Below are positions 4,850-41,303 of a stretch of 64,000 nt of DNA, piece after piece. This DNA comes from Taeniopygia guttata (Eukaryota). The stretch lies in the NCBI RefSeq assembly GCF_048771995.1, contig NC_133041.1, positions 4,599,324-4,663,323 of the forward strand. Reading direction: 5' to 3'. The notes below the pieces were generated by a model. It was given only the letters and a program-made list of their open reading frames with translations, was not told the DNA's origin and searched no databases. Each line of letters opens with the position of its first letter. Within the stretch, counting starts at the first letter, position 1. Both the position numbers and the translations under genes were made by a program.

Positions 4850-5800
4850 GCCCACCACATTTACATATCCATAGATGGTCATGGCTGGGTTAAACCACAC
4901 CCCCTCAGCGAGATGCCACGCCTTCATATATGCAAATAGCCCATGCAAACATGGCCGCATGTGGAAATGAATGGAATAAACCACGCCTTCGTTTGCATAT
5001 ATGCAAATGACCCATGCAAATCATGCCTTCATGCCCATATATGGAATAAACCATGCCTCATGCCTATGTATGCAAATAAACCACACCTTCGCCCACCTAT
5101 GCAAATAACCCATGCAAACATGCCCATATATGGAAATAATAGACACAGACCACTCCTTCATGTGCATATATGCAAATAACCCATGCAAATCGCCTTCATG
5201 CCCATATATGCAAATAAACCACGCCTTTATGTCTATATATGCAAATAAACCATGCCTTCATGCCAATATATGCAAATAAACCATGCCCTCATGCCCATAT
5301 ATGCAAAAAATCCATGCAAATAACTCTTTTATGCCCATATCTGGAAATAAATTATGCAAACGATGTCCTCATGCCTATATATGCAAATAGCCCATTCAAA
5401 ACATGCATTCATATATGCAAATAAGTGACACAAACCACGCCTCCATGCCCATATATGCAAATAACCCATGCAAACAACTACTTCATGCCCATATATGCAA
5501 ATAAACCATGCCCTCATGCCCATATATGCAAATAACCTACACAAACCACCCCTGCATGCCCATATATGCAAATAACCCATGCAAACCATGCCTTCATGCA
5601 CATATATGTAAATAAACCATGCCCTCATGCCAATATATGCAAATAACCCATGCAAACCACCCCTGCATGCCATATATGCAAATAAACCATGCATTCATGC
5701 CCATACATGCAAATAACCCATGCAAACCACGCCTCCATGCTATATATGCAAATAAATCATGCAAACCACACCCCCATACCCATATATGGACACAGTATAT
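4850..5800. repeat. ~25-bp satellite (catgcccatatatgcaaataaaccatgcctt) in VKORC1 intron 1
   Basis: The periodicity is visible directly. Confidence 0.9.
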
Positions 5801-5939: not shown

Positions 5940-6130
5940 CCCCTCCACCACCATTGGCCGCCGCCTGACGCAAGCCCCGCCCACTCGCGTTTCCCTCACT
6001 ACCATTGGCCGCCGCCTCAGCAGGCCCCGCCCACTCAATTTTCCCGCCAACACCGCTGCCTAGCGGCCCGTCCTTCCCCTCCCCGCTATTGGCCGCCGCC
6101 TCACGCAAGCTCCGCCCACTCCCGTTCCCG
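5940..6130. promoter_or_regulatory. Three tandem modules of a CCAAT box plus GC box in VKORC1 intron 1
   Basis: The motif ccattggccgccgcc..(c)ccccgcccactc occurs three times (about 5953, 6004, 6087). Read on the VKORC1 sense strand each is a CCAAT box next to an Sp1-like GGGCGGGG site. Confidence 0.35.
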
Positions 6131-6174
6131 CCCGCCCCCTCCCGTTACTCCCGGGCCGTTCCCGGTGCTTTTAC

Positions 6175-6329
6175 CGGGAGGAAAACACCCGCGTGCAGGA
6201 CACCGAGGGCCCCAGGTCGCAGGCGGCTCGGTAGGACGGGTCCTTGGCCACCTCATGCTCCACATGCAGCGCGTACACCGACAGCGCCGCGCCCGCCACA
6301 CACAGCGCCGCCCGCAGCGCCGCCGCCAT
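6175..6329 (-). CDS. VKORC1: VKORC1 exon 1 coding part (ATG at 6327-6329)
   Basis: It encodes [52 protein letters not shown], matching VKORC1 ..[35 protein letters not shown]. The donor is CG|GTAAAAG, leaving R split across exons 1 and 2. The tracked ORF begins at an upstream in-frame GTG (6368), but the first ATG is at 6329. Confidence 0.8.
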
Positions 6330-6720
6330 CGTCCAACCCCGATTGGGCGTCGCCGCTGCCACTCCCACCTCCCCTGTCCTGTGATTGGCCGGCGCGATGA
6401 AATCCCGCCTTGTTTCCGGTTGGGGCGCGGGGGTTGTTGGGAGTTGTAGTCCCGCGGGAAGTAACAGCGCGGATGAAAAATGGCGGGAGCGCGGCCAAGA
6501 TGGCGGCGGGGAGCTGAGTGAGGGCTCGGGCTCGGCCCCGCCGCTCCGGAGCCCTCCCGGAGGCCTTTGGGGAAGGTCGGGGCTCGGTGAGTGAGGCCCG
6601 GAGGGGTCCCGGGGGTCGCGGGGGTCCCGGGGGTGGCGGGGACGGGAGGGAATGGGTGGGATGGGGGGGCGGTGACGTCACGGGGCAAGATGGCGGCGGC
6701 GGCGTGAGGGGAAGGGGGGG
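6330..6720. promoter_or_regulatory. CpG-island promoter upstream of VKORC1, possibly bidirectional with PAGR1
   Basis: It is CpG-dense and carries a reverse CCAAT box (gtgattggccgg ~6382), an ETS-like ttccgg, gggagttgtagtcccg (reverse complement ACTACAACTCCC, a ZNF143/SBS-type motif), a CRE palindrome tgacgtca (~6672), and two YY1-core motifs caagatggcggcgg (6496, 6686), each followed by a gtgag(t/g)g donor-like site. Confidence 0.6.
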
Positions 6721-9627: not shown

Positions 9628-9689
9628 GTACACTTTGGGGCAAAAAATGGGCGTTTTGGGCAAAAAAAAAGGGGATTTTTAGGTGGTTT

Positions 9690-12600
9690 TAGGGGGGGTT
9701 TAGAGCGATTTTAGGGGGATTTTGGGGCCATTTTAGAGGCAAAGTTGAGGATTTTTTGAAGGTTTAGGGTGGATTTTGGGAAATTTAGGATGGATTTTGG
9801 GTGATTTAGGGTGGATTTTGGGGGATTTTGGGTGGATTTAGGGGGGATTTAGGATGGATTTTGGGGGATTTTGGCAGGTTTAGGATGGATTTAGGAAGGA
9901 TTTTGGGGGATTTAGGATGGATTTAGGATGGATTTTGGGGGATTTTGGATGGATTTTGGGCCATTTCAGACAGATTTTGGGAGATTTAGGATGGATTTGG
10001 GATGGATTTTAGGGGATTTAGGATGGATTTAGGACAGTTTAGGATGGATTTTGGGGGATTTTGGGTGGATTTTGGGTGGATTTAGGATGGATTTTGGATG
10101 GATTCTGGGGGATTTAGGATGGATTTAGGAAGGTTTAGGATGGATTTTGGGTGGATTTGGGAAGGTTTAGGATGGATTTGGGAAGGTTTAGGATGGATTT
10201 TGGGAGATTTCGGAAGGATTTCAGAAGGTTTAGATTGGATTTAGGATGGATTTCGGAAGGTTTGTGATGGATTTTGGAAGATTTAGGATGGATTTTGGGA
10301 GATTTCGGATGGATTTAGGATGGATTTCGGACGGATTTTGGGCCATTTCAGGTGGATTTTTGGCCATTTCAGGTGGATTTTGGGCCATTTCAGACAGATT
10401 TTGGCCCGTTTCGGGTGGATTTTAGGCCATTTTGGGTGGATTTTGGGCGGTTTCGGGTGGCGCCGGGACCCTCCCGCTGCGGAGCGGCCCCCTGCCCCGC
10501 CGCCAGCCCACCCCGGAGCCCCCCAGCGACCCCGAGGACGGGGGGGACCCCGCCCAGAGCCCCCCCCAGCGGCCCCCCGAGATCAAGTACACTTTGGGGG
10601 GAAAAATGGGGGTTTTGGGCAAAAAAACCGGGCGTTTTTAGGGGGTTTGGGGGCCATTTTAGGGGGATTTTGGGGCCATTTCAGAGGGAAAGTTGAGGGT
10701 TTTGGAAGGTTTAGGATGGATTTTGGGGCATTTAGGATGGATTTTGGGGGATTTAGGATGGATTTTGGGTGGATTTAGGGTGGATTTCCGATGGACTTTG
10801 GGGGATTTAGGATGGATTTTGGAACATTTAGGATGGAATTAGGCAGGTTTAGGATGGATTTTGGGGCATTTCGGATGGATTTAGGAAGGTTTAGGATGGA
10901 TTTTGGGTGGATTTTGGGGAATTTAGGATGGATTTAGGATGGATTTAAGCAGGTTTTGGATGGATTTTGGGGCATTTTGGATGGATTTAGGAAGGTTTAG
11001 GATGGATTTTGGGTGGATTTAGGAAGATTTAGGATGGCTTTGGGAAGGTTTAGGATGGATTTTGGGGCATTTCGGGTGAATTTTAGAAGGTTTAGGATGG
11101 ATTTAGGAAGATTTAGGATGGATTTAGGATGGATTTAGGAAGATTTAGGATGGATTTTGGGAGATTTAGAATGGATTTAGTGTGGATTTAGGATGGATTT
11201 TGGGCCATTTCGGGCAGATTTTGGGCCGTTTCGGGCGGCGCCGGGACCCTCCCGCTGCGCAGCGGCCCCCTGCCCCGCCGCCAGCCCACCCCGGAGCCCC
11301 CCAGCGACCCCGAGGACGGGGGGGACCCCGCCCAGAGCCCCCCGCAGCGGCCCCCCGAGATCAAGTACACTTTGGGGGGAAAAACGGGCGTTTTGGGCAA
11401 AAAAACCCGGCATTTCTACGTGGTTTGGGGGCCATTTTAGGGGGATTTTTGTGCCATTTCAAAGGGAAAGTTGAGGATTTTGGAAGGTTTAGGATGGATT
11501 TAGGATGGATTTAGGATGGATTTTGGGCCATTTCGGGTGAATTTTAGAAGGTTTAGGATGGATTTAGGAAGATTTAGGATGGATTTTGGGAGATTTAGGG
11601 TGGATTTAGGATGGATTTAGGATGGATTTTGGGCCATTTCGGGCGTATTTTGGCCCATTTCGGGCGGCGCCGGGACCCTCCCGCTGCGCAGCGGCCCCCT
11701 GCCCCGCCGCCAGCCCACCCCGGAGCCCCCCAGCGACCCCGAGGACGGGGGGGACCCCGCCCAGAGCCCCCCCCAGCGGCCCCCCGAGATCAAGTACACT
11801 TTGGGGCGAAAAACGGGCGTTTTGGGCAAAAAAACCGGGGATTTCTACGTGGTTTGGGGGCCATTTTAGGGGCATTTTGGGGGGATTTTGCGGCCATTTC
11901 AGAGGGAAAGTTGAGGGTTTTTGGAAGGTTTAGGATGGATTTTGGGGCATTTAGGATGGATTTAGGATGGATTTTGGGGGATTTAGACAGGTTTAGGATG
12001 GATTTTGGGAGATTTCAGGTGGATTTAGGATGGATTTTGGGAGATTTAGGGTGGATTTAGGATGGATTTAGGATGGATTTTGGGGTATTTAGGATGAATT
12101 TTGGAACATTTAGGATGGATTTTGGGGAATTTAGGAAGGATTTAGGCAGCTTTAGGATGGATTTTGGGGGATTTAGGATGGATTTAGTATGGATTTTTGG
12201 GGATTTTGGATGGATTTCGGAAGGTTTAGATTGGATTTAGGATGGATTTAGGAAGGTTTGGGATGGATTTAGGAAGATTTAGGATGGATTTTGGGGCATC
12301 TAGGATGAATGTGGGATGGATTTTGGGGGATTTAGGGTGGATTTGGGATGGATTTTGGGGGATTTAGGATGGATTAAGGATGGATTTGGAGCATTTAGGA
12401 AGGTTTCGGATGGATTTTGGGGCATTTAGGGTGGATTTAGGATGGATTTTTGGGGCATTTAGGATGGATTTGGGATGGATTTTGGGGGCTTTAGGATGGA
12501 TTTTGGGGGATTTAGGGTGGATTTAGGATGGATTTTGGGGCATTTAGGAAGGTTTCGGATGGATTTTGGGGGATTTAGGATGGATTTACAAAGTTTTAGG

Positions 12601-22379: not shown

Positions 22380-23860
22380 CCGATATTCTGCCCCAAAATT
22401 CCCCCCAATATTACCCCCAAAATCCCAAAAATCCCCCCCAAAAATTATCCCCAAAGTCCTTCAAAATCTCCCCAAAATTTCCCCAAAATCCCAAAAATCT
22501 CCCCCAGATTCTCCCCCAAATTCCCTCCAAAATCCCCCCAAAATCACCCCAAAATCCCCCCAAATTCCCTCCAAATTCCTCCCAAAATTCCCCCCAAAAT
22601 TCTCCCCAAATCTCCCAAAACCCCCCAAATTTCCACAAAAAGCCCCTAATATTTTTCCCTGAAAATCCCACATTTCCCCCCTAAAAATCCCAAAATTCCC
22701 CACAAATCCCCAAAAATCCCAAATTTTACCCCAAAATCCCAATTTCCCCAATTTTTTTTCCAGAAAACCCAAATTTTACCTAAAAATCCAAAATTTCCCC
22801 CAAAAATTTCCCAAAATTCATAAATTTTCTTAAAACTCCCCTCAAAAATCCCAAATTTCCCCAAAATTCCCCCCAAAATCCAAATTTTCCCAATCTTTAC
22901 ACAAAAACACCCAAAAATTCCAATTCTCTTATTTTTTTCCCCAAAAATCCCAAATTTCCACCTAAAACCCCCAAAATTCCCCCAAAATTTTCCCAAAAAA
23001 ACCATTTTTTCCCCCAAATTTTCCCACAAAACCCCACATTTTCCCCATAAATAACCGATTTTTCCCCAAAAATCCCAAATTTCCCCCCAAAATCCCCATT
23101 TTCCCCAAAATTTTCCCAAAATTCCTCCCAAAAATCCCAATTTTTTCCCAAAACCCCCAAATTTCCCCAAAATTCCCCTCAAACACCCCAAATTTCCCCA
23201 AATATCCCCCCAAAAATCAAAATTTTCTGCAAAATTCCCTCCAAAATCCCAATTTTTTTACCAAAACGCCCAAATTTCCTCAAAATTCCCCTCAAAAACC
23301 AAAATTTTCCCAAAATTCCTCCCAAAAATCCCAATTTTTTCCCCAAAACCCCCAAAATTCCCCAAAAATCCCCTCAAAAATCAAAATTCCCCAAAATTCC
23401 CCTCAAAATTCCCAAATTTCCCCAAAATTCCCCCCAAAATCCCATATTTTTTCCCAGGACCCCCAAATTTCCCCAAAATTCCCCTAAAAAACCCCAAATT
23501 TCCCCAAAATTCCCCAAAACCTTCAAATTTCCCCAAATATCCCCCGAAAAATCAAAATTTCTCCAAAATTCCCCCCAAAAATCCCAAATTTCCTCAAAAT
23601 TACCTCAAAAAAAATCCCAATTTTCTCCAAATTCCTTCCAAAAATACCAATTTTTTTACCAAAAAAACCAAATTATCCCCAAAATTCCCCCCCCAAAATA
23701 ATAATTTTTGTCCTGAAAAAAACAATTTTTCCCCAAAATTTCCCCCAAAATCCCAATTTTTTTACCAAAATCCCCAATTTTTCCCTAAAATTTTCCCAAA
23801 ACCCCCCAAAATTTTCCCAAAAACCCCCAAATTTTCCCAAAAAAACCCCAAATTCCCCCA
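22380..23860. repeat. C/A-rich satellite (ccccaaaattcccc..aaatcccaaattt, ~40-bp)
   Basis: The periodicity is visible directly. Confidence 0.85.
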
Positions 23861-23870
23861 AAATTTTCAC

Positions 23871-26800
23871 CTTCCTGGGATTCCACCACGTCTCTTCCTC
23901 CTCCTCTTCCTCCTCCTTCCTCCTCCTCTTCCTCGTCCCCCGCTCTTCCTCCCGCTCCCGTTTTCGCCGTTTTTCCGCCCATTTCGCCAGCGGCAAATCC
24001 TCGGAATCCTCCGAATCCGACCCCGCCGATTTTTGGGGCAATTTCGGGGATTTTCGGGCAATTTTTGGGGCTTTTTCGTCCTCTTCATCTTCATCCTCTT
24101 CTTCCTCGCTCTCAAATTTTGATTTTTTGGTCAATTTTTTTGTCATTTTTTGCCTTTTTTCCTCAATTTTTCCTGTTTTTTTCCTGTTTTTCCCACCTGG
24201 ATCTTCCTCTTCTTCCTCTTCTTCCTCCTCATCTTCATCCTCATCTTCATCTTCTTTGCTCTCAATTTTTGATTTTTTGGTCAATTTTTTTGTCATTTTT
24301 TGCCTTTTTTCCTCAACTTTTCCCGTTTTTCTCCCATTTTTCTTGCCTGAATCTTCCTTTTCCTCCTCCTCATCTTCATCCTCTTCATCCTCTTCTTCCT
24401 CGCTCTCAAATTTTGATTTTTTGGTCAATTTTTTGGTCGTTTTTTGCCTTTTTTCCTCGGTTTTTCCTGTTTTTTTCCCATTTTTCTTGCCTGGATCTTC
24501 CTCTTCTTCCTCCTCATCTTCATCCTCCTCTTCCTCACTCTCAAATTTGGATTTTTTTGCCCCTTTTTGCCTTTTTTCCTCGATTTTTCCCGTTTTTTTC
24601 CTGTTTTTCTTGCCTGGATCTTCCTCTTCTTCCTCCTCATCTTCATCCTCCTCTTCCTCGCTCTCAAATTTCGATTTTTTGGTCATTTTTTTTGTTATTT
24701 TTTGCCTTTTTTCCTGATTTTTTCCCGTTTTTTTCCTGTTTTTCCCGCCTGGATCTTCCTCATCTTCCTCCTCATCTTCATCCTCCTCTTCCTCACTCTC
24801 AAATTTTGATTTTTTTGCCGCTTTTTGGGTCACTTTTTGCCTTTTTTCCTCGATTTTTCCTGTTTTTTTCCTGTTTTTCCCACCTGGATCTTCCTCTTCT
24901 TCCTCTTCTTCCTCTTCATCTTCCTCGTCCTCGCTCTCAAATTTCGATTTTTTGTTCAATTTTTTGGTCGTTTTTTGCCTTTTTTCCTCGATTTTTCCCG
25001 TTTTTCTCCCATTTTTCTTGCCTGAATCTTCCTCTTCTTCCTCCTCATCTTCATCTTCTTCATCCTCCTCTTCCTCACTCTCAATTTTTGATTTTTTTGG
25101 CCTTTTTTGCCTTTTTTCCTCCACTTTTCCTGTTTTTTTCCTGTTTTTCCCACCTGGATCTTCCTCTTCCTCCTCCTCATCTTCATCCTCCTCTTCCTCA
25201 CTCTCAAATTTCGATTTTTTGGCCAATTTTTTGGTCATTTTTTGCGTTTTTTCCCCAATTTTTCCCGTTTTTTTCCTGTTTTTCCCACCTGGATCTTCCT
25301 CTTCTTCCTCCTCATCTTCATCCTCGTCTTCCTCACTCTCAAATTTTGATTTTTTTGCCCCTTTTTGCCTTTTTTCCTCGATTTTTCCCGATTTTTTCCT
25401 GGTTTTCCCGCCTGGATCTTCCTTTTCCTCCTCCTCATCTTCATCCTCTTCATCCTCCTCTTCCTCACTCTCAAACTTCGATTTTTTGGCCAATTTTTTG
25501 GTCATTTTTTGGGTTTTTTCCCCAATTTTCCCCGTTTTTTTCCTATTTTTTCGGTCTGGCTCTTCCTCTTCCTCCTCCTCATCTTCCTCCTCCTCACTCT
25601 CCATTTTCCTCCTTTTTCCCCCCATTTTTTCCCATTTTCCCCCTTTTTTCTCCTCATTTTTCCCAGATTTTGCTGATTTTTCCCCAATTTTTCCCCTTTT
25701 CACCCCGATTTTCTCCCTCTCTTCTTCCTCCTCCTCTTCCTCCTCCTCACTCTCCATTTTCCCCTTTTTCGCCCCGTTTCTCCCAGAATTTTCGGATTTT
25801 TCTCCAATTTTTCCTTTTTTCACCCCAATTTTTATCCTCTCCTCTTCCTCTTCCTCCTCATCTTCCTCACTCTCAATTTTCCTCCTTTTTGCCCAATTTT
25901 TCCCCATTTTTTCCTCATTTTTCCCCCCAAATTTCTTCATCTCCTCCTCTTCCTCCTCCTCCTCTTCCTCACTTTCAATTTTCCTCTTTTTTGCCCCATT
26001 TTCCCCCATTTTTTCCTCATTTTCCCCATCATTTTTCCCGGAATTTTTGGATTTTTCTTCATTTTTTCCATTTTTCACCCCATTTTTCTTCCTCTCCTCT
26101 TCCTCCTCCTCCTCCTCTTCCTCATTTTCAATTTTCCCAATTTTTTGCCCATTTTTGCCCATTTTCCCCTCATTTTTTTCCTTTTTTGCCCCATTTTTCC
26201 TTTCTTCTTCCTCGTCCTCTCCATCACTTTCAATTTTCCCCATTTTTGCCCCATTTTTTCCAATTTTTTGACCATTTTTCCACTTATTTGCCTCATTTTT
26301 CTTTTCTTCTTCCTCCTCCTCTTCCTCACTTTCAATTTTCCCCATTTTTGCCACATTTTTTCCCACTTTTTCCTCATTTTTTCCCATTTTTGCCTCATTT
26401 TTCCTTTCTTCTTCCCCCTCCTCTTCCTCACTCTCATTTCCCCCCTTTTTCTCCCCATTTTTCCCAGAACTTCTGGATTTTTCCTCATTTCTTCCTTTTT
26501 TCACCCCATTTTTCTCCCTTTCCTCTTCCTCCTCTTCCTCACTTTCCATTTCCCTCATTTTTTTCCCATTTCCCCCCAATTTTTCCTCATTTTCCCCCTT
26601 TTTTGCCCCATTTTCCCTTTCTTCTTCCTCCTCCTTTTCCTCACTTCCAATTTTCCCCATTTTTGCCCCATTTTCCCCCATTTTTTCCTCATTTTCCCCC
26701 GTCTCTTCCTCATCTTCATCCTCCTCTTCCTCGCTCTCAAATTTCGATATTTTCACCCTTTTTTTGGTCATTTTTTCCCTTTTTTCCACAATTTTTCCCA

Positions 26801-27137
26801 ATTTTTTCCCGCCTGGATCTTCCTCCTCATCCTCATCTTCCCCTCCCTCAAATTTCGCTTTTTCTCCCCATTTTTTCCCCATTTTTTCCCCGATTTCCCC
26901 CGTTTTTCCCCCATTTTTCCTCTCTGCCTCCTCCCCTCCCTCCTCTTCCCCCTCCCCCACCATTTTCCTCATTTTTGTCCCATTTTCCCCCATTTTTTCC
27001 CCATTTTCCTCCTCATTTCTCTTCCTCCTCTCCTCCTCTTCCTCAGCCCCATTTTTCCCGCCATTTTCACTTTTCCCGCCATTTCCGCCATTTTCCCGCC
27101 ATTCTCCCCATCCGCCAGGGGGCGCCCCTCTGGCCAC
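23871..27137 (-). CDS. HIRIP3: Putative HIRIP3 large acidic exon expanded into ~25 in-frame tandem repeats of ~120-135 bp (K/E/D-rich); the 5' limit is unknown
   Basis: A 1154-codon open frame lies on the HIRIP3 strand with units ..DPGGKNRKKTGKIEEKRQKMTKKLTKKSKFESEEEEDEDEEEEEE... It ends ..[50 protein letters not shown] with a strong donor AAG|GTGAAAA at 23870, in phase with exon 21207-21351. Human HIRIP3 has a comparable Ser/Glu/Lys-rich centre. Caveat: a purine-only repeat whose unit is a multiple of 3 stays open without selection. Confidence 0.4.
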
Positions 27138-27901
27138 GCCCCCTTCCAGCTCCGCGCATGCGCAATCGGCCTCGCCGCCACCCGGCGCCCTGCGGAGAAG
27201 AAAAGGGCGTGGTCAAACAGGGCGTGGTCAAACAGGGCGTGGCAGCATCGGGGGCGTGGCCAACGCAAGGCGTGGCCCCCCCGGGGGGGTCTCCGGTGTT
27301 TCCCCTCCCCCCTCCCGGTACCGTTCGCAGCCGCTCGCCGCCGCCGCCGCCGCCATTTCTGCGCCCTCAGAGCAGCGACCAATGAGGATGGGGATGAACG
27401 ACAGTGAGGCGGGGCTTGAGGCGTGATAACCAATGAGGTGCAGCGCTATGAACCAGGAAGCGGCGACAACCAATAGAAGCGAGGAAAAGGCGGGGTGAAG
27501 TTGAGCGGCAGCAGTTTTGGCCAATCAGAAGCGCGGCAGAACAGCGCAGGCCAATAGAGCGCGGAGCAACTTGTGGGAGTGAATGGCAGCCACTTTAACC
27601 AATCAGAAGCCGGCTAGGAGCTGCAACAACCAATTAGAAGCGTCAGTAGGCGGGGCTAAGCTGCTGAGCCATGCCTAACACGGAAACGCTTGGCGCGTGA
27701 TTGACAGCAGCGCCACCCAATCAAATCGCCGCTTTCTGACGGTTTAACTAATCACACACAGCAGAAGGCGGGGTTTAATCCCGCTCCCGGAGAAGAACCC
27801 GGAAGAGGAACGCGGGGTTGGACCAAAAGGGACCAATCAGGAGGCGGCGCGGGAAGGGGAGAGCCAATGAGGAGCGAGGGGAAGGGCGGGGCTTGTCCGC
27901 C
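27138..27901. promoter_or_regulatory. HIRIP3/INO80E bidirectional CpG-island promoter with an array of 11 same-orientation CCAAT boxes
   Basis: CCAAT boxes lie at 27379, 27430, 27470, 27521, 27551, 27599, 27629, 27717, 27833 and 27864 (plus a variant 27748), mostly in the context RRCCAAT[CG]AG, which is the NF-Y consensus. There are also runs of gggcgtggtcaaacagggcgtgg and an ATGGCGGCGGCGGCG stretch on the minus strand (about 27340). The INO80E ATG follows at 27902. Confidence 0.65.
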
Positions 27902-27985
27902 ATGAACGGGGCGAGCGAGGGCGATGGCGGCGGCTACAAACGGCGCTGCCGGGCCCTGAAACGGCGCCTGAAGCTGCTGCTCTAC
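27902..27985 (+). CDS. INO80E: INO80 complex subunit E, exon 1 coding part
   Basis: It encodes MNGASEGDGGGYKRRCRALKRRLKLLLY with the donor TAC|GTGAGG. It matches human INO80E [27 protein letters not shown]. Confidence 0.85.
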
Positions 27986-28059
27986 GTGAGGGGCGGGGCC
28001 AAGGGGAAAGGGGAGGGGCTTAAAGGGCGGGAAGGGAAAAGGGGCGGGGCTTCAGCGTG

Positions 28060-32867: not shown

Positions 32868-33110
32868 CCCCCTCCCGCCCCTCCCCCTCTGCCCCTTTCG
32901 GGGGGTGGGGCGGGGGCGGGGCTGGGCGGGGGGCGTGGCCCTGGCTCGCCCCTCCCCCCGGCGCTGGCCCCGCCCCCGGCCCCGCCCCCCGTGCCCCCCA
33001 CGCTGCCCCGGCGGCTCCTGAGCGGCCCCGGGGGCGGGGAGGGGGAGGGGGAGGGCAGCGACGACCCCCTGGACGGGGACGACGAGCTGGTCATCGACCT
33101 GCCCGAGTGA
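32868..33110 (+). CDS. INO80E: INO80E terminal exon (stop TGA at 33108-33110)
   Basis: The acceptor is cccccccag|. It encodes a Pro/Gly-rich segment followed by ..PPTLPRRLLSGPGGGEGEGEGSDDPLDGDDELVIDLPE*, matching the human INO80E C-terminus ..[22 protein letters not shown]. Confidence 0.85.
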   Translation, partial: PPPAPPPLPLSGGGAGAGLGGGRGPGSPLPPALAPPPAPPPVPPTLPRRLLSGPGGGEGEGEGSDDPLDGDDELVIDLPE

Positions 33111-34620
33111 CCCCGAGTGACCCCGAGTGACCACTGACCCCTGAGTGACCCCTGAGTGACCATCGGCCTCCCTGAGTGACCCCTGAGTGACCACCGACCT
33201 TCCCTGGACGGGGACGACGAGCTGGTCATCGACCTGCCCGAGTGACCCCGAGTGACCCCGAGTGACCCTGAGTGACCCCTGAGTGACCAGTGAGTGACCA
33301 GTGACCTCCCTGAGTGACCACCGACCTTCCCTGGACGGGGACGACGAGCTGGTCATCGACCTGCCTGAGTGACCCCTGAGTGACCATTGACCTCTCTGAG
33401 TGACCAGTGACCCCGAGTGACCCCGAGTGACCATCGGCCTCCCTGAGTGACCCCTGAGTGACCATCGGCCTCCCTGAGTGACCACCAACCTCCCTGAGTG
33501 ACCATCGGCCTCCCTGAGTGACCATCAGCCTCCCTGAGTGACCATCGGCCTCCCCAAGTGACCACCGGCCTTCCCTGGACGGGGACAACGAGCTGGTCAT
33601 CGACCTGCCCGAGTGACCCCGAGTGACCCCTGAGTGACCACTGAGTGACCCTGAGTGACCACTGAGTGATCCTGAGTGACCGCTGAGTGACCACTGACCT
33701 CCCTGAGTGACCATCGGCCTTCCCTGGACGGGGACAACGAGCTGGTCATCGACCTGCCCGTGTGACCCCTGACCGCTGAGTGACCACTGAGTGACCACCG
33801 ACCTCCCTGAGTGACCATCAGCCTCCCTGAGTGACCATCAACCTTCCTGAGTGACCATCGACCTTCCCTGGACGGGGACGATGAGCTGGTCATCGACCTG
33901 CCCGAGTGACCCCGAGTGACCCTGAGTGACCCCTGAGTGACCATTGACCTGCCCGAGTGACCCCGAGTGACCCCTGAGTGACCACTGACCTCCCTGAGTG
34001 ACCATCGGCCTTCCCTGGACGGGGACGACGAGCTGGTCATCGACCTGCCCGAGTGACCCCTGAGTGACCCCGAGTGACCCCGAGTGACCCTGAGTTACCC
34101 TGAGTGACCATCGGCCTCCCTGAGTGACCCCTGAGTGACCACCGGCCTTCCCTGGACGGGGACGACGAGCTGGTCATCGACCTGCCCGAGTGACCCCGAG
34201 TGACCCCGAGTGACCCCGAGTGACCAGTGAGTGACCATCGACCTCCCTGAGTGACCATCGGCCTCCCTGAGTGACCATCGGCCTTCCCTGGACGGGGACG
34301 ACGAGCTGGTCATCGACCTGCCCGAGTGACCCCGAGTGACCCTGAGTGACCAGTGAGTGACCACTGACCGCTGAGTGACCCCTGAGTGACCAGTGACCTC
34401 CCTGAGTGACCACCGACCTTCCCTGGACGGGGACGACGAGCTGGTCATCGACCTGCCCGAGTGACCCCGAGTGACCCCTGAGTGACCCCGAGTGACCCTG
34501 AGTGACCACTGAGTTACCACTGACCCCTGAGTGACCGCTGAGTGACCATCGGCCTCCCTGAGTGACCCCTGAGTGACCACTGAGTGACCACGGGGTGTGG
34601 AGTGACCATCGGCCTTCCTG
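33111..34620 (+). other. About 9 partial copies of the INO80E last-exon 3' end (LDGDDELVIDLPE plus stop) within a GAGTGACC micro/minisatellite
   Basis: The unit cttccctggacggggacgacgagctggtcatcgacctgcccgagtga recurs at about 33199, 33320, 33562, 33710, 33858, 34008, 34140, 34284 and 34416, separated by (gagtgacc/cctgagtgacc)n. Confidence 0.85.
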
Positions 34621-39571: not shown

Positions 39572-39637
39572 GCCGCTGCTGCTGAGCGAGGATGAGGAGG
39601 ACACGAAACGCGTGGTGAGGAGCGCCCGCGACAAGAG
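39572..39637 (+). CDS. EIF3C: EIF3C exon 3
   Basis: It encodes (K)[21 protein letters not shown](R), matching human [22 protein letters not shown]. The acceptor is cccccag| and the donor AG|GTATTG. Confidence 0.9.
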
Positions 39638-39639
39638 GT

Positions 39640-41220
39640 ATTGATCGGGTATTGATCCGGTATCGATCGGGGATTGGTGCGGTATTGATCCGCCAGCCAT
39701 CGGGTATTGGTCCGGGATCGATCAGGGATTGGTCCCGTATTGGGCCGGGATTGATCGGGTGTTGATCCGCTATCGATGGGGTATTGGTGCGGTATTGATC
39801 GGGAATTGGTCCAGGATTGATCGGGGATCGGTCCCATATTGGGCCGGGATTGGTCGGGTATTGGGCCGCTAGCGATCAGGTATTGATCCGCCAGCGATCG
39901 GTTATTGGTCCGCTAGAGATCAGGTATTGGTCCGGTATCAATCGGGTATTGGGCCGGTATCGATTGGGTATTGTTCCGGTATTGATTGGTTATTGGTCCA
40001 GTATTGATCGAGTATTGATCTGTTATTGATCCAGTATTGATCGGTTATTGATCCACTAGCCTTGATATTGATATTGGTCAATATCAATACCCTTGATATT
40101 GACCAATATCAAGGGTATTGGTCCCTTATTGATCGGGTATTGATCCCTTATTGATTGGTCTTTGATCCCTTCTTGATTGGTTATTGATCCCTTATTGATT
40201 GGTTATTGGTCCGCTAGCTATCGGGTATTGATCCGCTAGCGATCGGGTATTGGTCCATTATTGATCATTTATTGATTCGGTAGTGAACGGTTATTGATCC
40301 GCTATCGATCGGGTATTGGTCCCTTACTGATTGGTTATTGATCCCTTTTTGACTGGTTTTTGATTCCTTATCAATGAGTTATTTATCCCTTATCAATGAG
40401 TTATTGATTTCTTGTTGATTGGTTATTGATGCTTTATTGATTGAAGATTGATCTGCTAGCAATCAGTTATTGGTGCCTTATTGATCGGTTATTGATCCAG
40501 GATTGACCGGTTATTGATCCCTTATTGATCAGTTATTGGTTTTATTGATCGGTTATCGGTTCCTTATTGAGCCGTTATCAGTTTCTGATTGAGCCGTTAT
40601 CGGTTCCTTTTTGAGCCGTTATTGATCTGGTATAGATTGGTTATTGAACCCTTATTGATCAGGTATTGATCCCTTATTGATTGGTTATCAGTTCCTTATT
40701 GAGCCGTTATTGAGCCGTTTTTGAGCCATAATCGAGCAAGTATTGATCCCTTATTGAGTGGCTATTGAGCAGTTATGGATCTCTTATTGATTCATTATTG
40801 GTCTCTTATTGATTGGTTATTGATACATTTTTGAGCAGTTATTGATTTGTTATTGGTCAGCTATTGACCAGTTATTGATTGGTTATCGGTCCCTTATTGA
40901 GCGGTTATTGATCCCTTTTTATCCCTACTGGTCCCAATGGGTCCTTATTGATCCCTATTGGTTCCTATTGGTTTGGTTTCTATTGATCCCAATGGCCCCA
41001 GATGGATCCTTATTGATCCTGATCAATCCTTATTGATCCCTATTGATCGCAACGGGTCTGTATTGATCCCTGTTGGTCCCAATGGATCCCTATTGATCCC
41101 TATTGGTTCCTATTAGTTTGGTTTTAATTCATCCCTGTTGATCCCGATTGATCCCAATGGACCCAAATCGATCCCGATTGATCCCGATCGATGCCAATCG
41201 CCCCTGATTGATCCCGATCG
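39640..41220. repeat. ~22-bp satellite (gggtattgatccgctagcgatc and variants) in EIF3C intron 3
   Basis: The periodicity is visible directly. Confidence 0.9.
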
Positions 41221-41227
41221 ATCCCAG

Positions 41228-41303
41228 GTACGAGGAGCTCACCAACCTGATCCGCTCCATCCGCAACGCCATGAAGATCCGCGACGTCAGCCGCTGCCTC
41301 GAG
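41228..41303 (+). CDS. EIF3C: EIF3C exon 4
   Basis: It encodes (R)[25 protein letters not shown], matching human [25 protein letters not shown]. The acceptor is atcccag| and the donor GAG|GTGCCC. Confidence 0.9.

What the first reader, a model, noticed from the sequence alone, without database searches (positions are those of the whole stretch)
27370..27880. Array of 11 tandem, same-orientation NF-Y-type CCAAT boxes in the HIRIP3/INO80E bidirectional promoter
Ten to eleven CCAAT pentamers with the extended consensus RRCCAAT(C/G)AG are spaced ~30-50 bp apart, immediately upstream of the INO80E ATG (27902) and downstream of HIRIP3 in antisense. This is far denser than typical promoters, which have 1-3, and looks like a promoter-embedded minisatellite of NF-Y sites.
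Basis: seen in the sequence. Interest (0 to 1): 0.6.

Follow-up and report, generated by a model that had tools for sequence, protein, structure and literature searches.

The report
Ten CCAAT boxes in one promoter
The short gap between two head-to-head zebra finch chromatin genes (HIRIP3 and INO80E) holds ten same-direction CCAAT boxes, left by old tandem duplication of a promoter module; this is an unusually large example of a known promoter type, not a new mechanism.

Summary
There are 10 exact CCAAT on the + strand between 27379 and 27868 and none on the - strand, where 0.37 are expected. One decayed box (CTAAT) sits at 27748. Six of the ten match RRCCAATSR fully.

INO80E starts at 27902 (+). 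HIRIP3 is on the - strand upstream. The window is zebra finch: its VKORC1 is 100% identical.

The array is not a plain minisatellite, and TRF finds no repeat. It is about five degenerate head-to-tail copies of an 80-118 bp module: DECA-like site, 11 bp, CCAAT, 25 bp, CCAAT, 14 bp, GGCGGGG. Across module copies the motif columns are about 90% identical and the spacers 41%.

Orthologous promoters have 13 boxes in a tyrant flycatcher, 5-6 in a cuckoo, and 4 in a parrot and a goose. A sea turtle has 4 inside a 95%-identical 57-bp minisatellite. Two mammals have none.

The best reading is a TATA-less CpG-island promoter, bound by several NF-Y with Sp/KLF and possibly TALE partners, that grew by tandem duplication with the motifs kept by selection. 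Protein binding and transcription start sites were not tested.

It is a large variant of known multi-CCAAT promoters. Interest is moderate.

The parts
27379..27383 (+). CCAAT box 1 (gaCCAATga; full RRCCAATSR match). A GGCGGGG follows at 27408. Remnant of a module copy.
27410..27500 (+). Module copy m1. CCAAT at 27430 (aaCCAATga, full consensus) and 27470 (aaCCAATag), 40 bp apart. GGCGGGG at 27489-27495.
   Evidence: nhmmer E=8.9e-9; this copy was used to build the model, so it matches by construction
27501..27578 (+). Module copy m2. DECA-like TGAGCGGCAG at 27502-27511, 11 bp after its GGC to CCAAT 27521 (ggCCAATca, full consensus). Second CCAAT at 27551, 30 bp on. No GC box.
   Evidence: (D5, D9)
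27579..27696 (+). Module copy m3. DECA-like TGAATGGCAG at 27580-27589, 11 bp, CCAAT 27599 (full consensus). CCAAT 27630 follows at 31 bp (aaCCAATta). GGCGGGG at 27649-27655.
   Evidence: (D4, D5, D9)
27697..27812 (+). Module copy m4. Exact DECA TGATTGACAG at 27698-27707, the only match with up to 1 mismatch in 64 kb. 11 bp after its GAC comes CCAAT 27717 (acCCAATca). The decayed box CTAAT at 27748 follows at 31 bp. GGCGGGG at 27767-27773. Then an 85-bp stretch without CCAAT, holding CCGGAAG at 27799-27805 inside a GAACCCGGAAG block shared with Myiozetetes.
27813..27901 (+). Proximal module copy m5. CCAAT at 27833 and 27864, both full consensus, at -69 and -38 from the ATG and 31 bp apart. GGGCGGGG at 27884-27891. 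The double box with its exact 26-bp spacer length is shared by zebra finch, flycatcher, parrot and goose.
27902..27985 (+). INO80E exon 1 (MNGASEGDGGGYKRRCRALKRRLKLLLY, donor gtgagg). Later exons lie at about 29109, 30158 and 30316; the last one ends at 33107.
27322..27356 (-). Putative HIRIP3 exon 1 (ATG at 27356-27354; MAAAAAASGCE..). The inferred intron is 27321-27190 (GT...polypyrimidine-AG). Exon 2 from 27189 is in frame with an open frame of 1183 codons rich in E, K and G. This model is an inference and is not verified by RNA.
   Evidence: HIRIP3 identity and strand
27204..27290 (+). Five GGGCGTGG (Sp/KLF-type GT/GC) boxes in tandem, same orientation as the array, inside the putative HIRIP3 intron 1. 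Also present in Myiozetetes.
27154..27163 (.). Perfect NRF1-type palindrome GCGCATGCGC. It may mark an alternative HIRIP3 promoter or start-site region.

Best explanation
The 545 bp between the INO80E ATG (27902) and the putative HIRIP3 ATG (27356, - strand) in zebra finch form a TATA-less CpG-island promoter shared by the two head-to-head genes.

Build. The region consists of about five degenerate head-to-tail copies of an 80-118 bp composite module: DECA-like site (TGATTGACAG type), 11 bp, CCAAT, 25 bp, CCAAT, 14 bp, GGCGGGG.

Origin (inferred). The module was amplified by tandem duplication in the passerine lineage, from an ancestral bird promoter that already had two double-CCAAT units. 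The spacers have since diverged almost to randomness. The CCAAT pentamers, the GC boxes and the spacings (11 bp, 30-31 bp, 19-20 bp) were kept, which points to purifying selection on factor binding.

Mechanism (inferred from what is published on these motifs). Up to ten NF-Y trimers can bind at once, because each contacts about 30 bp and no two boxes are closer than 30 bp. They would act together with Sp/KLF factors on the GC boxes and, at least at 27698-27721, with a PBX/PREP (TALE) dimer in the canonical DECA-11 bp-CCAAT geometry. The assembly would keep the whole intergenic region free of nucleosomes and drive divergent transcription of both genes.

Shown: motif content, orientation, spacing, module structure, conservation and gene identities.
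Inferred: protein occupancy, effect on transcription, positions of start sites, and the duplication history.
For: Enrichment. 10 + strand CCAAT against 0.37 expected, and 0 on the - strand. 6 of the 11 strict NF-Y-type matches in 64 kb lie in these 511 bp. The consensus RRCCAATSR, the roughly 30-bp footprint and the -60/-100 rule come from PMC11802806.

Module structure. In the alignment of 5 window and 6 Myiozetetes copies, the invariant or nearly invariant columns lie almost wholly in the two CCAAT boxes and the GC box; a few more lie in the DECA-like 5' part and just after CCAAT 1. Motif columns are 90% identical and spacers 41%. Information content is 1.50 bits per position in the pentamer and 0.38 bits away from it.

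Fixed spacings. Distances of 30-31 bp recur 4 times in the window and 6 times in Myiozetetes. The proximal double box keeps an indel-free 26-bp spacer in 4 birds, with spacer identity 51% and pentamer identity 100%.

DECA. The only TGATTGACAG (up to 1 mismatch) in 64 kb is at 27698, and CCAAT follows exactly 11 bp after its GAC. GANNGRC-N11-CCAAT occurs 4 times against 0.5 expected: 3 in the array and 1 at the VKORC1 promoter. The geometry is as published, GAnnGAC-11bp-CCAAT with 10-12 bp tolerated. DECA, CCAAT and Sp/KLF motifs co-occur at TALE-bound sites (PMC6023610).

Origin by tandem duplication. All CCAAT, all GGCGGG and all DECA-like sites are on one strand in every bird and in the turtle. 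The turtle orthologue is a 57-bp, 4.7-copy, 95%-identical minisatellite with one CCAAT per unit. Box number runs 4 (goose, parrot), 5-6 (cuckoo), 10 (window), 13 (flycatcher).

Promoter context. GC 0.58, CpG observed/expected 0.87, no TATA. Gene identities. Precedent: four same-strand CCAAT boxes bound by NF-Y drive the bidirectional Mrps12/Sarsm promoter (PMC1802594).
Against: - There are no binding, accessibility or start-site data. The only cDNA contig recovered begins 2 nt before the ATG.
- TRF finds no repeat.
- Spacer identity of 41% is barely above what aligned random sequence of this composition would give. Common descent of the copies therefore rests on shared order, orientation and spacing rather than on sequence similarity.
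- One-to-one orthology of copies between the two passerines is only partly consistent.
- Box number varies from 0 in two mammals to 13, so most boxes cannot be essential for expressing these housekeeping genes.
- The neighbourhood is full of tandem arrays that carry factor-like motifs with no evident function, such as the ATGCAAAT satellite at 5000-5788 and the CAAT satellite at 39600-41250.
- Boxes at -38 and -69 from the ATG are too close for the usual -60/-100 position unless the 5' UTR is very short.
- The 30-31 bp spacing is not one of the modal human double-CCAAT distances of 24-27, 36 and 43 bp.
- Only one of the three DECA-like sites is a good DECA.
- Helical phasing of the boxes is not significant in the window (P about 0.25).
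Confidence: 0.68

Rival explanations
1. Largely neutral repeat relic. The promoter lies in an exceptionally repeat-prone bird genomic region, and a CCAAT-bearing unit was amplified by slippage or unequal exchange without any benefit. Only the ancestral proximal one or two double boxes work. The extra boxes are passengers that have not yet decayed or are homogenised now and then.
For: - Tandem arrays are everywhere in the window, including arrays of perfect factor-like motifs: 20 ATGCAAAT at 5000-5788, the 11-bp CAAT satellite at 39600-41250, a 51-bp CCAAT+GC-box repeat in VKORC1 intron 1, and repeated copies of the INO80E last exon.
- The turtle array is 95% identical, hence young, so selection need not be invoked there.
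- Box number differs three-fold among birds and is zero in two mammals.
- One box has decayed (27748), and Myiozetetes has two decayed boxes, TCAAT and CTAAT.
Against: - Spacers have diverged to 41% identity while the pentamers and GC boxes stay at about 90% and the spacings stay exact. Neutral decay at that spacer divergence would have destroyed most pentamers.
- The control satellite shows conservation spread over the whole unit, not islands at the motifs.
- Most boxes sit at colinear positions in a flycatcher, a suboscine passerine.
Confidence: 0.2
2. The array belongs essentially to INO80E alone. HIRIP3 starts from its own promoter farther left, around the NRF1 palindrome at 27154 and the GGGCGTGG boxes. 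The CCAAT array then lies 200-700 bp upstream of the HIRIP3 start and is not a shared bidirectional core.
For: - A perfect GCGCATGCGC sits at 27154.
- In Myiozetetes two CCAAT in the HIRIP3-sense orientation, 31 bp apart, lie at L001 9019 and 9050 on the HIRIP3 side.
- The HIRIP3 exon 1 model (ATG 27356) has no RNA support, and the N-terminal exons conserved in mammals and turtle could not be found in birds.
- All boxes are in the INO80E-sense orientation.
Against: - An ATG, a GT donor, a polypyrimidine-AG acceptor and frame continuity into an open frame of 1183 codons are all present. A parallel ATG/donor/acceptor arrangement with the same phase exists in Myiozetetes.
- NF-Y acts in either orientation, and same-strand arrays drive both directions at Mrps12/Sarsm.
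- Either way the two genes are head to head within 750 bp or less.
Confidence: 0.3
3. The pentamers are read by something other than NF-Y, for example a different CCAAT-binding or homeodomain factor. Alternatively the array acts mainly through DNA structure or as a recombination-associated feature of a CpG island.
For: There are no binding data. Four of the ten boxes miss one flank position of RRCCAATSR. Several boxes read CCAATNAGAAG, a longer shared flank than NF-Y needs.
Against: RR is present upstream in 9 of 10 boxes and S-R downstream in 7 of 10, which fits the asymmetric NF-Y site. The minimum spacing respects the NF-Y footprint. The partner motifs (GC box, DECA at 11 bp) are those published for NF-Y.
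Confidence: 0.07

Closest known systems
Mrps12-Sarsm (Sars2) bidirectional promoter of mouse and human: an array of four CCAAT boxes bound by NF-Y (Zanotto et al. 2007, PMC1802594)
   Same: Head-to-head genes less than 1 kb apart. TATA-less. All CCAAT boxes on the same strand. The array fills the space between the two start codons. Boxes of better and weaker consensus are mixed.
   Different: Four boxes in under 200 bp there, against 10 (+1 decayed) in 490 bp here. No reported modular repeat structure, GC-box partner or DECA. NF-Y binding and the effect on directionality were shown by experiment there and are only inferred here.
DECA-CCAAT composite elements read by TALE (PBX/PREP), NF-Y and Sp2, e.g. 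the mouse Sp2 promoter with five CCAAT in 150 bp (bioRxiv 10.64898/2026.02.16.706105; Ladam et al. 2018, PMC6023610; Voelkel et al. 2015, PMC4368557)
   Same: TGATTGACAG lies exactly 11 bp (counted from GAC) before a CCAAT, in the same relative orientation. There are several CCAAT boxes and Sp/KLF-type GC motifs nearby. The 11-bp distance is kept in all three window copies, in four flycatcher copies and at the VKORC1 promoter.
   Different: Only one of the three window sites is a true DECA; the others have 2-3 mismatches (GGC instead of GAC). The element is repeated in tandem as part of a larger module. The genes concerned are not known TALE targets. Occupancy is untested.
Cell-cycle (G2/M) promoters with two or three precisely spaced CCAAT boxes (cyclin B2, cdc25C; cited in PMC1802594 and PMC4889920)
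   Same: Precisely spaced same-strand double CCAAT boxes about three helical turns apart, in TATA-less promoters.
   Different: No CHR element (TTYGAA) anywhere in 27000-28000. Many more boxes. The 30-31 bp spacing differs from the human genome-wide modes of 24-27, 36 and 43 bp.
LTR12/ERV9 repeats carrying several NF-Y sites (PMC4889920, PMC11802806)
   Same: A repeat-borne multiplicity of NF-Y sites.
   Different: LTR12 boxes are typically 19 bp apart and belong to a dispersed retroelement. Here the module profile finds no strong copy elsewhere in the window or in the flanks of the other loci, and the array sits at an orthologous position in several birds.
Human INO80E/HIRIP3 head-to-head overlapping gene pair (PMC11890862)
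   Same: Same gene pair and same divergent arrangement.
   Different: The human study names RARG, RNA duplexes and R-loops and never mentions NF-Y or CCAAT. The ibex and seal intergenic regions have no + strand CCAAT and a single conserved ATTGG next to the HIRIP3 start.

Membership tests
NF-Y-type CCAAT box | Intact CCAAT pentamer | tested here: met
   10 exact pentamers on the + strand, plus 1 decayed (CTAAT)
NF-Y-type CCAAT box | Asymmetric flanks RRCCAATSR (PMC11802806) | tested here: inconclusive
   6 of 10 match fully and 4 of 10 miss one flank position. No calibrated weight matrix (JASPAR or HOCOMOCO) was available to set a threshold.
NF-Y-type CCAAT box | Neighbouring boxes at least about 19-24 bp apart, so that trimers can bind together (PMC4889920) | tested here: met
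   The smallest distance is 30 bp
NF-Y-type CCAAT box | Position about -60 to -100 from a transcription start site | not testable with these tools
   No start-site data. cDNA contig L004 begins 2 nt before the ATG.
NF-Y-type CCAAT box | Occupancy by NF-YA/B/C | not testable with these tools
   Needs ChIP, CUT&RUN or EMSA
Multi-CCAAT bidirectional promoter (Mrps12/Sarsm type) | Two divergent protein-coding genes with 5' ends less than 1 kb apart | tested here: met
   INO80E ATG at 27902 (+). The HIRIP3 open frame on the - strand reaches at least 27189, and its putative ATG is at 27356.
Multi-CCAAT bidirectional promoter (Mrps12/Sarsm type) | TATA-less CpG island with all boxes on one strand | tested here: met
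   No TATA, CpG observed/expected 0.87, 10 boxes on + and 0 on -
DECA-CCAAT composite element (TALE/NF-Y/Sp2) | DECA motif TGATTGACAG (core GAnnGAC) | tested here: inconclusive
   One exact site at 27698-27707, the only one in 64 kb. Two paralogous sites are degenerate: TGAATGGCAG and TGAGCGGCAG.
DECA-CCAAT composite element (TALE/NF-Y/Sp2) | 11 bp (10-12 tolerated) between GAC and CCAAT, in a fixed relative orientation | tested here: met
   Exactly 11 bp in all three window sites and in four Myiozetetes sites; pattern count in the window 4 against 0.5 expected
DECA-CCAAT composite element (TALE/NF-Y/Sp2) | Co-occupancy by PBX/PREP, NF-Y and Sp2 | not testable with these tools
   Needs ChIP or EMSA
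Minisatellite / tandem repeat | Head-to-tail copies recognisably similar in sequence (TRF-detectable, about 70% or more) | tested here: not met
   TRF reports no repeat over the array in the window, Myiozetetes or Cuculus. Spacer identity is 41%. The feature is met only at the turtle orthologue: 57 bp x 4.7 copies, 95%.
Minisatellite / tandem repeat | Repeated unit with conserved internal order and orientation, and copy number varying between species | tested here: met
   Module alignment and profile. Strict single-strand orientation, and 4 to 13 boxes across sauropsids.
G2/M cell-cycle CCAAT promoter | CHR element (TTYGAA) downstream of the CCAAT boxes | tested here: not met
   No TTYGAA on either strand in 27000-28000
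Transposon-borne NF-Y array (LTR12-like) | Dispersed copies of the same element elsewhere | tested here: not met
   The module profile gives only weak partial hits outside the orthologous promoters. Only 64 kb plus about 190 kb of loci could be searched.

The most novel reading that the evidence does not exclude
The INO80E/HIRIP3 promoter of birds and turtles is a recurrently expanding 'promoter minisatellite'. Its repeat unit is a complete factor platform: a TALE site, two NF-Y sites at fixed spacing, and an Sp/KLF site. Copy number (2 modules in goose and parrot, 5-7 in passerines, an independent 57-bp amplification in a sea turtle) would act as an evolvable dial. It would set the width of the nucleosome-free region and the output or balance of the two divergent chromatin-regulator genes. 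Selection would preserve motifs and spacings long after the repeat has become unrecognisable. Expansion may be driven by the promoter-centred recombination of birds, which lack PRDM9 (the recombination point is from my own knowledge, not tested here).
Probability: 0.3. Interest if true: 0.6.

Novelty: new variant of a known kind. Interest (0 to 1): 0.4.

Why it matters
Promoters with two to five NF-Y sites are textbook material. An array of ten to thirteen same-strand sites, built from a repeated composite module, is to my knowledge undescribed, and nothing like it turned up in the literature searched.

It offers a natural series for asking how the number of NF-Y sites affects three things: the width of the nucleosome-free region, the choice of start site, and the balance of a bidirectional promoter. 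The series runs 0 boxes in mammals, 4 in goose and parrot, 5-6 in cuckoo and 10-13 in passerines, with a young minisatellite in a turtle.

It also shows how tandem duplication followed by selective decay can turn a repeat into a dense cluster of binding sites.

Because the window is zebra finch, a laboratory model, the predictions can be checked directly with accessibility, start-site and ChIP assays.

It does not reveal a new mechanism. If the distal boxes prove to be unbound, it is just one more repeat in a very repeat-rich region.

Tried and rejected
- TRF on the array in the window, flycatcher and cuckoo found no repeat. The 'plain minisatellite' reading is rejected for birds.
- A helical-phasing (Rayleigh) test on box positions was not significant in the window (P about 0.25) and marginal in the flycatcher (0.023). 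A first version of the script timed out.
- Scans for TATA, CHR and E-box in 27000-28000 found none. The G2/M-type promoter is rejected.
- I searched for the conserved HIRIP3 N-terminal exons (MA.E.EM..FTR and LTHSIVRRRYLAH) in four birds by tblastn and found nothing. The HIRIP3 start is therefore only modelled.
- The third protein search, with the HIRIP3 C-terminal exons at E<=1e-8, returned nothing. The threshold was probably too strict for a database of 5.8 billion sequences. That search was wasted.
- cDNA contig L004 starts 2 nt before the ATG, right after a sequencing adaptor, so it gives no start-site information.
- Human INO80E (P0014) was not on record. Ibex and seal were used instead.
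- Locus L011 turned out to be an AT-rich non-vertebrate sequence and is irrelevant.
- In the frog locus the ATG lies downstream of an intron. The true 5' region there has three CCAAT of mixed orientation, so 'zero in frog' would be wrong.
- A metagenome scan with the conserved 28-mer around the ATG gave 0 hits.
- Mantovani's 1998 frequency table was not held. I therefore did not run a weight-matrix scan rather than invent a matrix.
- One-to-one orthology of module copies between the two passerines is only partly supported. The duplication history is left open.
- The transposon-origin idea was tested with a module profile, which found no dispersed copies.
Full report
1. What is in the sequence

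Between 27379 and 27868 there are ten exact CCAAT pentamers, all on the + strand: 27379, 27430, 27470, 27521, 27551, 27599, 27630, 27717, 27833 and 27864. There is none on the - strand. Twenty thousand dinucleotide-preserving shuffles of the 511 bp give a mean of 0.37 (maximum 4). An eleventh, decayed box (CTAAT, 27748) sits where the other module copies have an intact CCAAT.

Raw CCAAT density is not special in this window. There are 354 CCAAT, fewer than the shuffled mean, and most lie in simple satellites such as CCCAATTTT or the 11-bp GACCAATAACC repeat at 39600-41250. The flanks are what distinguish the array. Nine of ten boxes have RR upstream, and six match the full published NF-Y consensus RRCCAATSR (PMC11802806). 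Six of the eleven matches to RRCCAAT[CG][AG]G in the whole 64 kb, both strands, lie in these 511 bp.

2. Gene context and species

The ATG at 27902 opens INO80E exon 1 (MNGASEGDGGGYKRRCRALKRRLKLLLY, donor gtgagg). Exons 2-4 and the last exon follow with correct splice phases. The spliced 95 residues score 78.7 bits on Pfam INO80E (cut-off 27.8), and the best named homologues are bird INO80E.

HIRIP3 lies upstream on the - strand. The seal CHZ-domain gene that neighbours INO80E gives three colinear tblastx matches at 21360-21208, 19478-19395 and 18490-18440. A long open frame rich in E, K and G runs up to 27189.

A plausible first exon has its ATG at 27356-27354, a GT donor at 27321 and a polypyrimidine-AG acceptor at 27190. 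It joins in frame to an open frame of 1183 codons. The flycatcher has a parallel arrangement with the same phase. This model is an inference. The N-terminal exons conserved in mammals and turtle were not found in birds, and a perfect NRF1 palindrome at 27154 may mark another start region.

Either way the two genes are head to head within 750 bp or less. The intergenic 544 bp have GC 0.58, CpG observed/expected 0.87 and no TATA.

The window is zebra finch. All three VKORC1 exons in the window (first exon from the ATG at 6329 to about 6172, - strand) are 100% identical to Taeniopygia guttata VKORC1, and the next best species is at 86%.

3. Anatomy: a degenerate higher-order repeat, not a simple minisatellite

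TRF reports nothing over the array. Gapless repeat search does find weak direct repeats spaced 78, 116 and 118 bp apart (families D4, D5, D9).

I aligned five window segments and six from the flycatcher orthologue. This gives a module GTGAnnGGCAGC-N8-CCAAT-N25-CCAAT-N14-GGCGGGGC. The invariant or nearly invariant columns lie almost wholly in the two CCAAT boxes and the GC box; a few more lie in the DECA-like 5' part and just after the first CCAAT. Motif columns are 90% identical between copies and the rest 41%. Information content is 1.50 bits per position in the pentamer and 0.38 away from it. In a control satellite from the same window (ATGCAAAT repeat, 5000-5788) conservation spreads over the whole unit.

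Spacings are fixed. The two CCAAT of a module are 30-31 bp apart in four window copies and six flycatcher gaps. The second CCAAT is 19-20 bp before GGCGGG.

The 5' part of the module is a DECA-type site. The only TGATTGACAG (up to 1 mismatch) in 64 kb is at 27698-27707. CCAAT 27717 follows exactly 11 bp after its GAC. That is the published geometry of the TALE/NF-Y/Sp2 composite element, GAnnGAC-11bp-CCAAT, with 10-12 bp tolerated. DECA is defined as TGATTGACAG and co-occurs with CCAAT and Sp/KLF motifs in PMC6023610. The two paralogous sites (TGAATGGCAG, TGAGCGGCAG) keep the 11 bp but are poor DECA motifs. The pattern GANNGRC-N11-CCAAT occurs four times in the window against 0.5 expected: three in the array and one at the VKORC1 promoter.

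4. Related sequences

I fetched orthologous INO80E 5' regions by exact-protein look-up. The counts below are + strand CCAAT upstream of the ATG.
- Myiozetetes cayanensis (suboscine passerine): 13 in 687 bp, with the same module and several ETS-like CGGAAGTG.
- Cuculus canorus: 5-6, each followed by GGGCGGGGCTTG.
- Lathamus discolor (parrot): 4.
- Anser cygnoides (goose): 4 of promoter type.
- Natator depressus (sea turtle): 4, inside a 57-bp, 4.7-copy, 95%-identical minisatellite.
- Capra ibex and Weddell seal: none, with a single conserved ATTGG next to the HIRIP3 start.
- A caecilian: one. A frog: three of mixed orientation at the 5' ends.

In every bird and in the turtle, all CCAAT and all GGCGGG are on the INO80E-sense strand.

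The proximal double box is shared by zebra finch, flycatcher, parrot and goose. Its 26-bp spacer has no indels and is 51% identical, while the pentamers are 100% identical.

A global alignment of the zebra finch and flycatcher arrays places eight boxes at colinear positions. Module-by-module similarity only partly confirms one-to-one orthology. The alignment is anchored by the motifs themselves, so I treat the exact duplication history as open.

5. How it most likely works

Shown: motif content, strict orientation, fixed spacings, motif-island conservation among paralogous copies and among species, CpG-island and TATA-less context, and gene identities.

Inferred, from what is published on these motifs:
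- NF-Y contacts about 30 bp and sits at -60/-100 (PMC11802806).
- No double boxes closer than 19 bp occur in bound regions (PMC4889920).
- NF-Y acts in both directions from same-strand arrays in a bidirectional promoter (PMC1802594).
- NF-Y maintains the nucleosome-depleted region (cited in PMC11802806).

On that basis, up to ten NF-Y trimers, Sp/KLF factors on the GC boxes, and a TALE dimer at least at 27698 would occupy the region together. They would hold roughly 500 bp open and drive both genes.

The array arose by tandem duplication of a composite module. The evidence is uniform orientation, the variation in copy number, and the turtle minisatellite, which shows the same process at an early stage. 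Selection then kept the motifs and spacings while the spacers decayed.

I put this at about 0.68.

6. Rivals

(a) Neutral relic of a repeat-prone region, with only the proximal boxes functional (about 0.2). It is favoured by the many motif-bearing satellites nearby and by the wide variation in copy number. It is disfavoured by the motif-island pattern and the exact spacings.

(b) The array serves INO80E only, and HIRIP3 starts near 27154 (about 0.3). This is compatible with the main explanation in other respects.

(c) The boxes are read by a factor other than NF-Y, or act through DNA structure (about 0.07).

7. Comparison with what is known

The nearest experimentally characterised case is the Mrps12/Sarsm bidirectional promoter, with four same-strand CCAAT boxes bound by NF-Y. 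The mouse Sp2 promoter has five CCAAT with DECA sites at 10-11 bp.

The present array differs in number (10-13), in being a tandem repeat of a complete composite module, and in being specific to birds and turtles. It lacks the CHR element of G2/M promoters, and there is no sign of a dispersed element.

The 30-31 bp double-box distance is not one of the human modes of 24-27, 36 and 43 bp. The human INO80E/HIRIP3 study does not mention NF-Y or CCAAT at all. I found no description of this bird array in the library searched.

8. Verdict

The unit is a composite module, the repeat is ancient and degenerate in this species, and occupancy is untested. It is a new, unusually large variant of a known promoter type, of moderate interest (0.4). 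It is directly testable because the species is zebra finch.

Noticed in passing
window 33067-34567: The end of the INO80E coding sequence (..LDGDDELVIDLPE, stop at 33107) and its 3' flank are re-duplicated in tandem about nine times downstream of the real last exon. TRF gives a period of about 291-293 bp and 74-83% matches. A similar repeat aligns in Myiozetetes.
   Followed up: partly
window about 23675-27189, - strand: With the modelled first exon, HIRIP3 has an open frame of 1183 codons made of roughly 100-bp tandem repeats encoding stretches rich in E, K, G and N. This is far longer than the mammalian acidic/basic middle region. The same is seen in Myiozetetes. The N-terminal exons conserved in mammals and turtle were not detectable in four birds.
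   Followed up: partly
window 5941-6390, - strand: A second, smaller cluster of five same-strand CCAAT surrounds VKORC1 exon 1 (ATG 6329, donor after about 6172). Two lie upstream of the ATG, one of them with GAGTGGC-N11-CCAAT. Three lie in intron 1 inside a 51-bp repeat of CCAAT plus GGGCGGGGCTTG (TRF 5941-6054, 81%). Module duplication at 5' ends may be common in this region.
   Followed up: partly
window 5000-5788: A satellite of 31-40 bp period carries 20 perfect octamer motifs (ATGCAAAT), just downstream of the VKORC1 intron-1 CCAAT repeats.
   Followed up: partly
window 39600-41250: An 11-bp-period satellite (GATCAATAAGG / GACCAATAACC on the - strand). It accounts for dozens of the window's CCAAT hits and is not promoter-like.
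   Followed up: yes
window 27047-27111 and 27154-27163: Four to five tandem CCGCCATTTT (AAAATGGCGG on the - strand, YY1-like) lie inside the HIRIP3 open frame. A perfect NRF1 palindrome GCGCATGCGC lies just upstream of them on the - strand.
   Followed up: no
L001 (Myiozetetes) 9640-9760: In the flycatcher copies the DECA-like site overlaps a good ETS motif (GCGGAAGTGAC, three times). The zebra finch copies lack it. The partner motif of the module seems to differ between the two passerines.
   Followed up: no
L005 9300 and L010 5299 (ibex, seal): Mammals have a single conserved ATTGG (CCAAT in the HIRIP3 sense) about 15-20 bp upstream of the HIRIP3 ATG and about 700 bp from the INO80E ATG. It is the only CCAAT in the intergenic region.
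   Followed up: no
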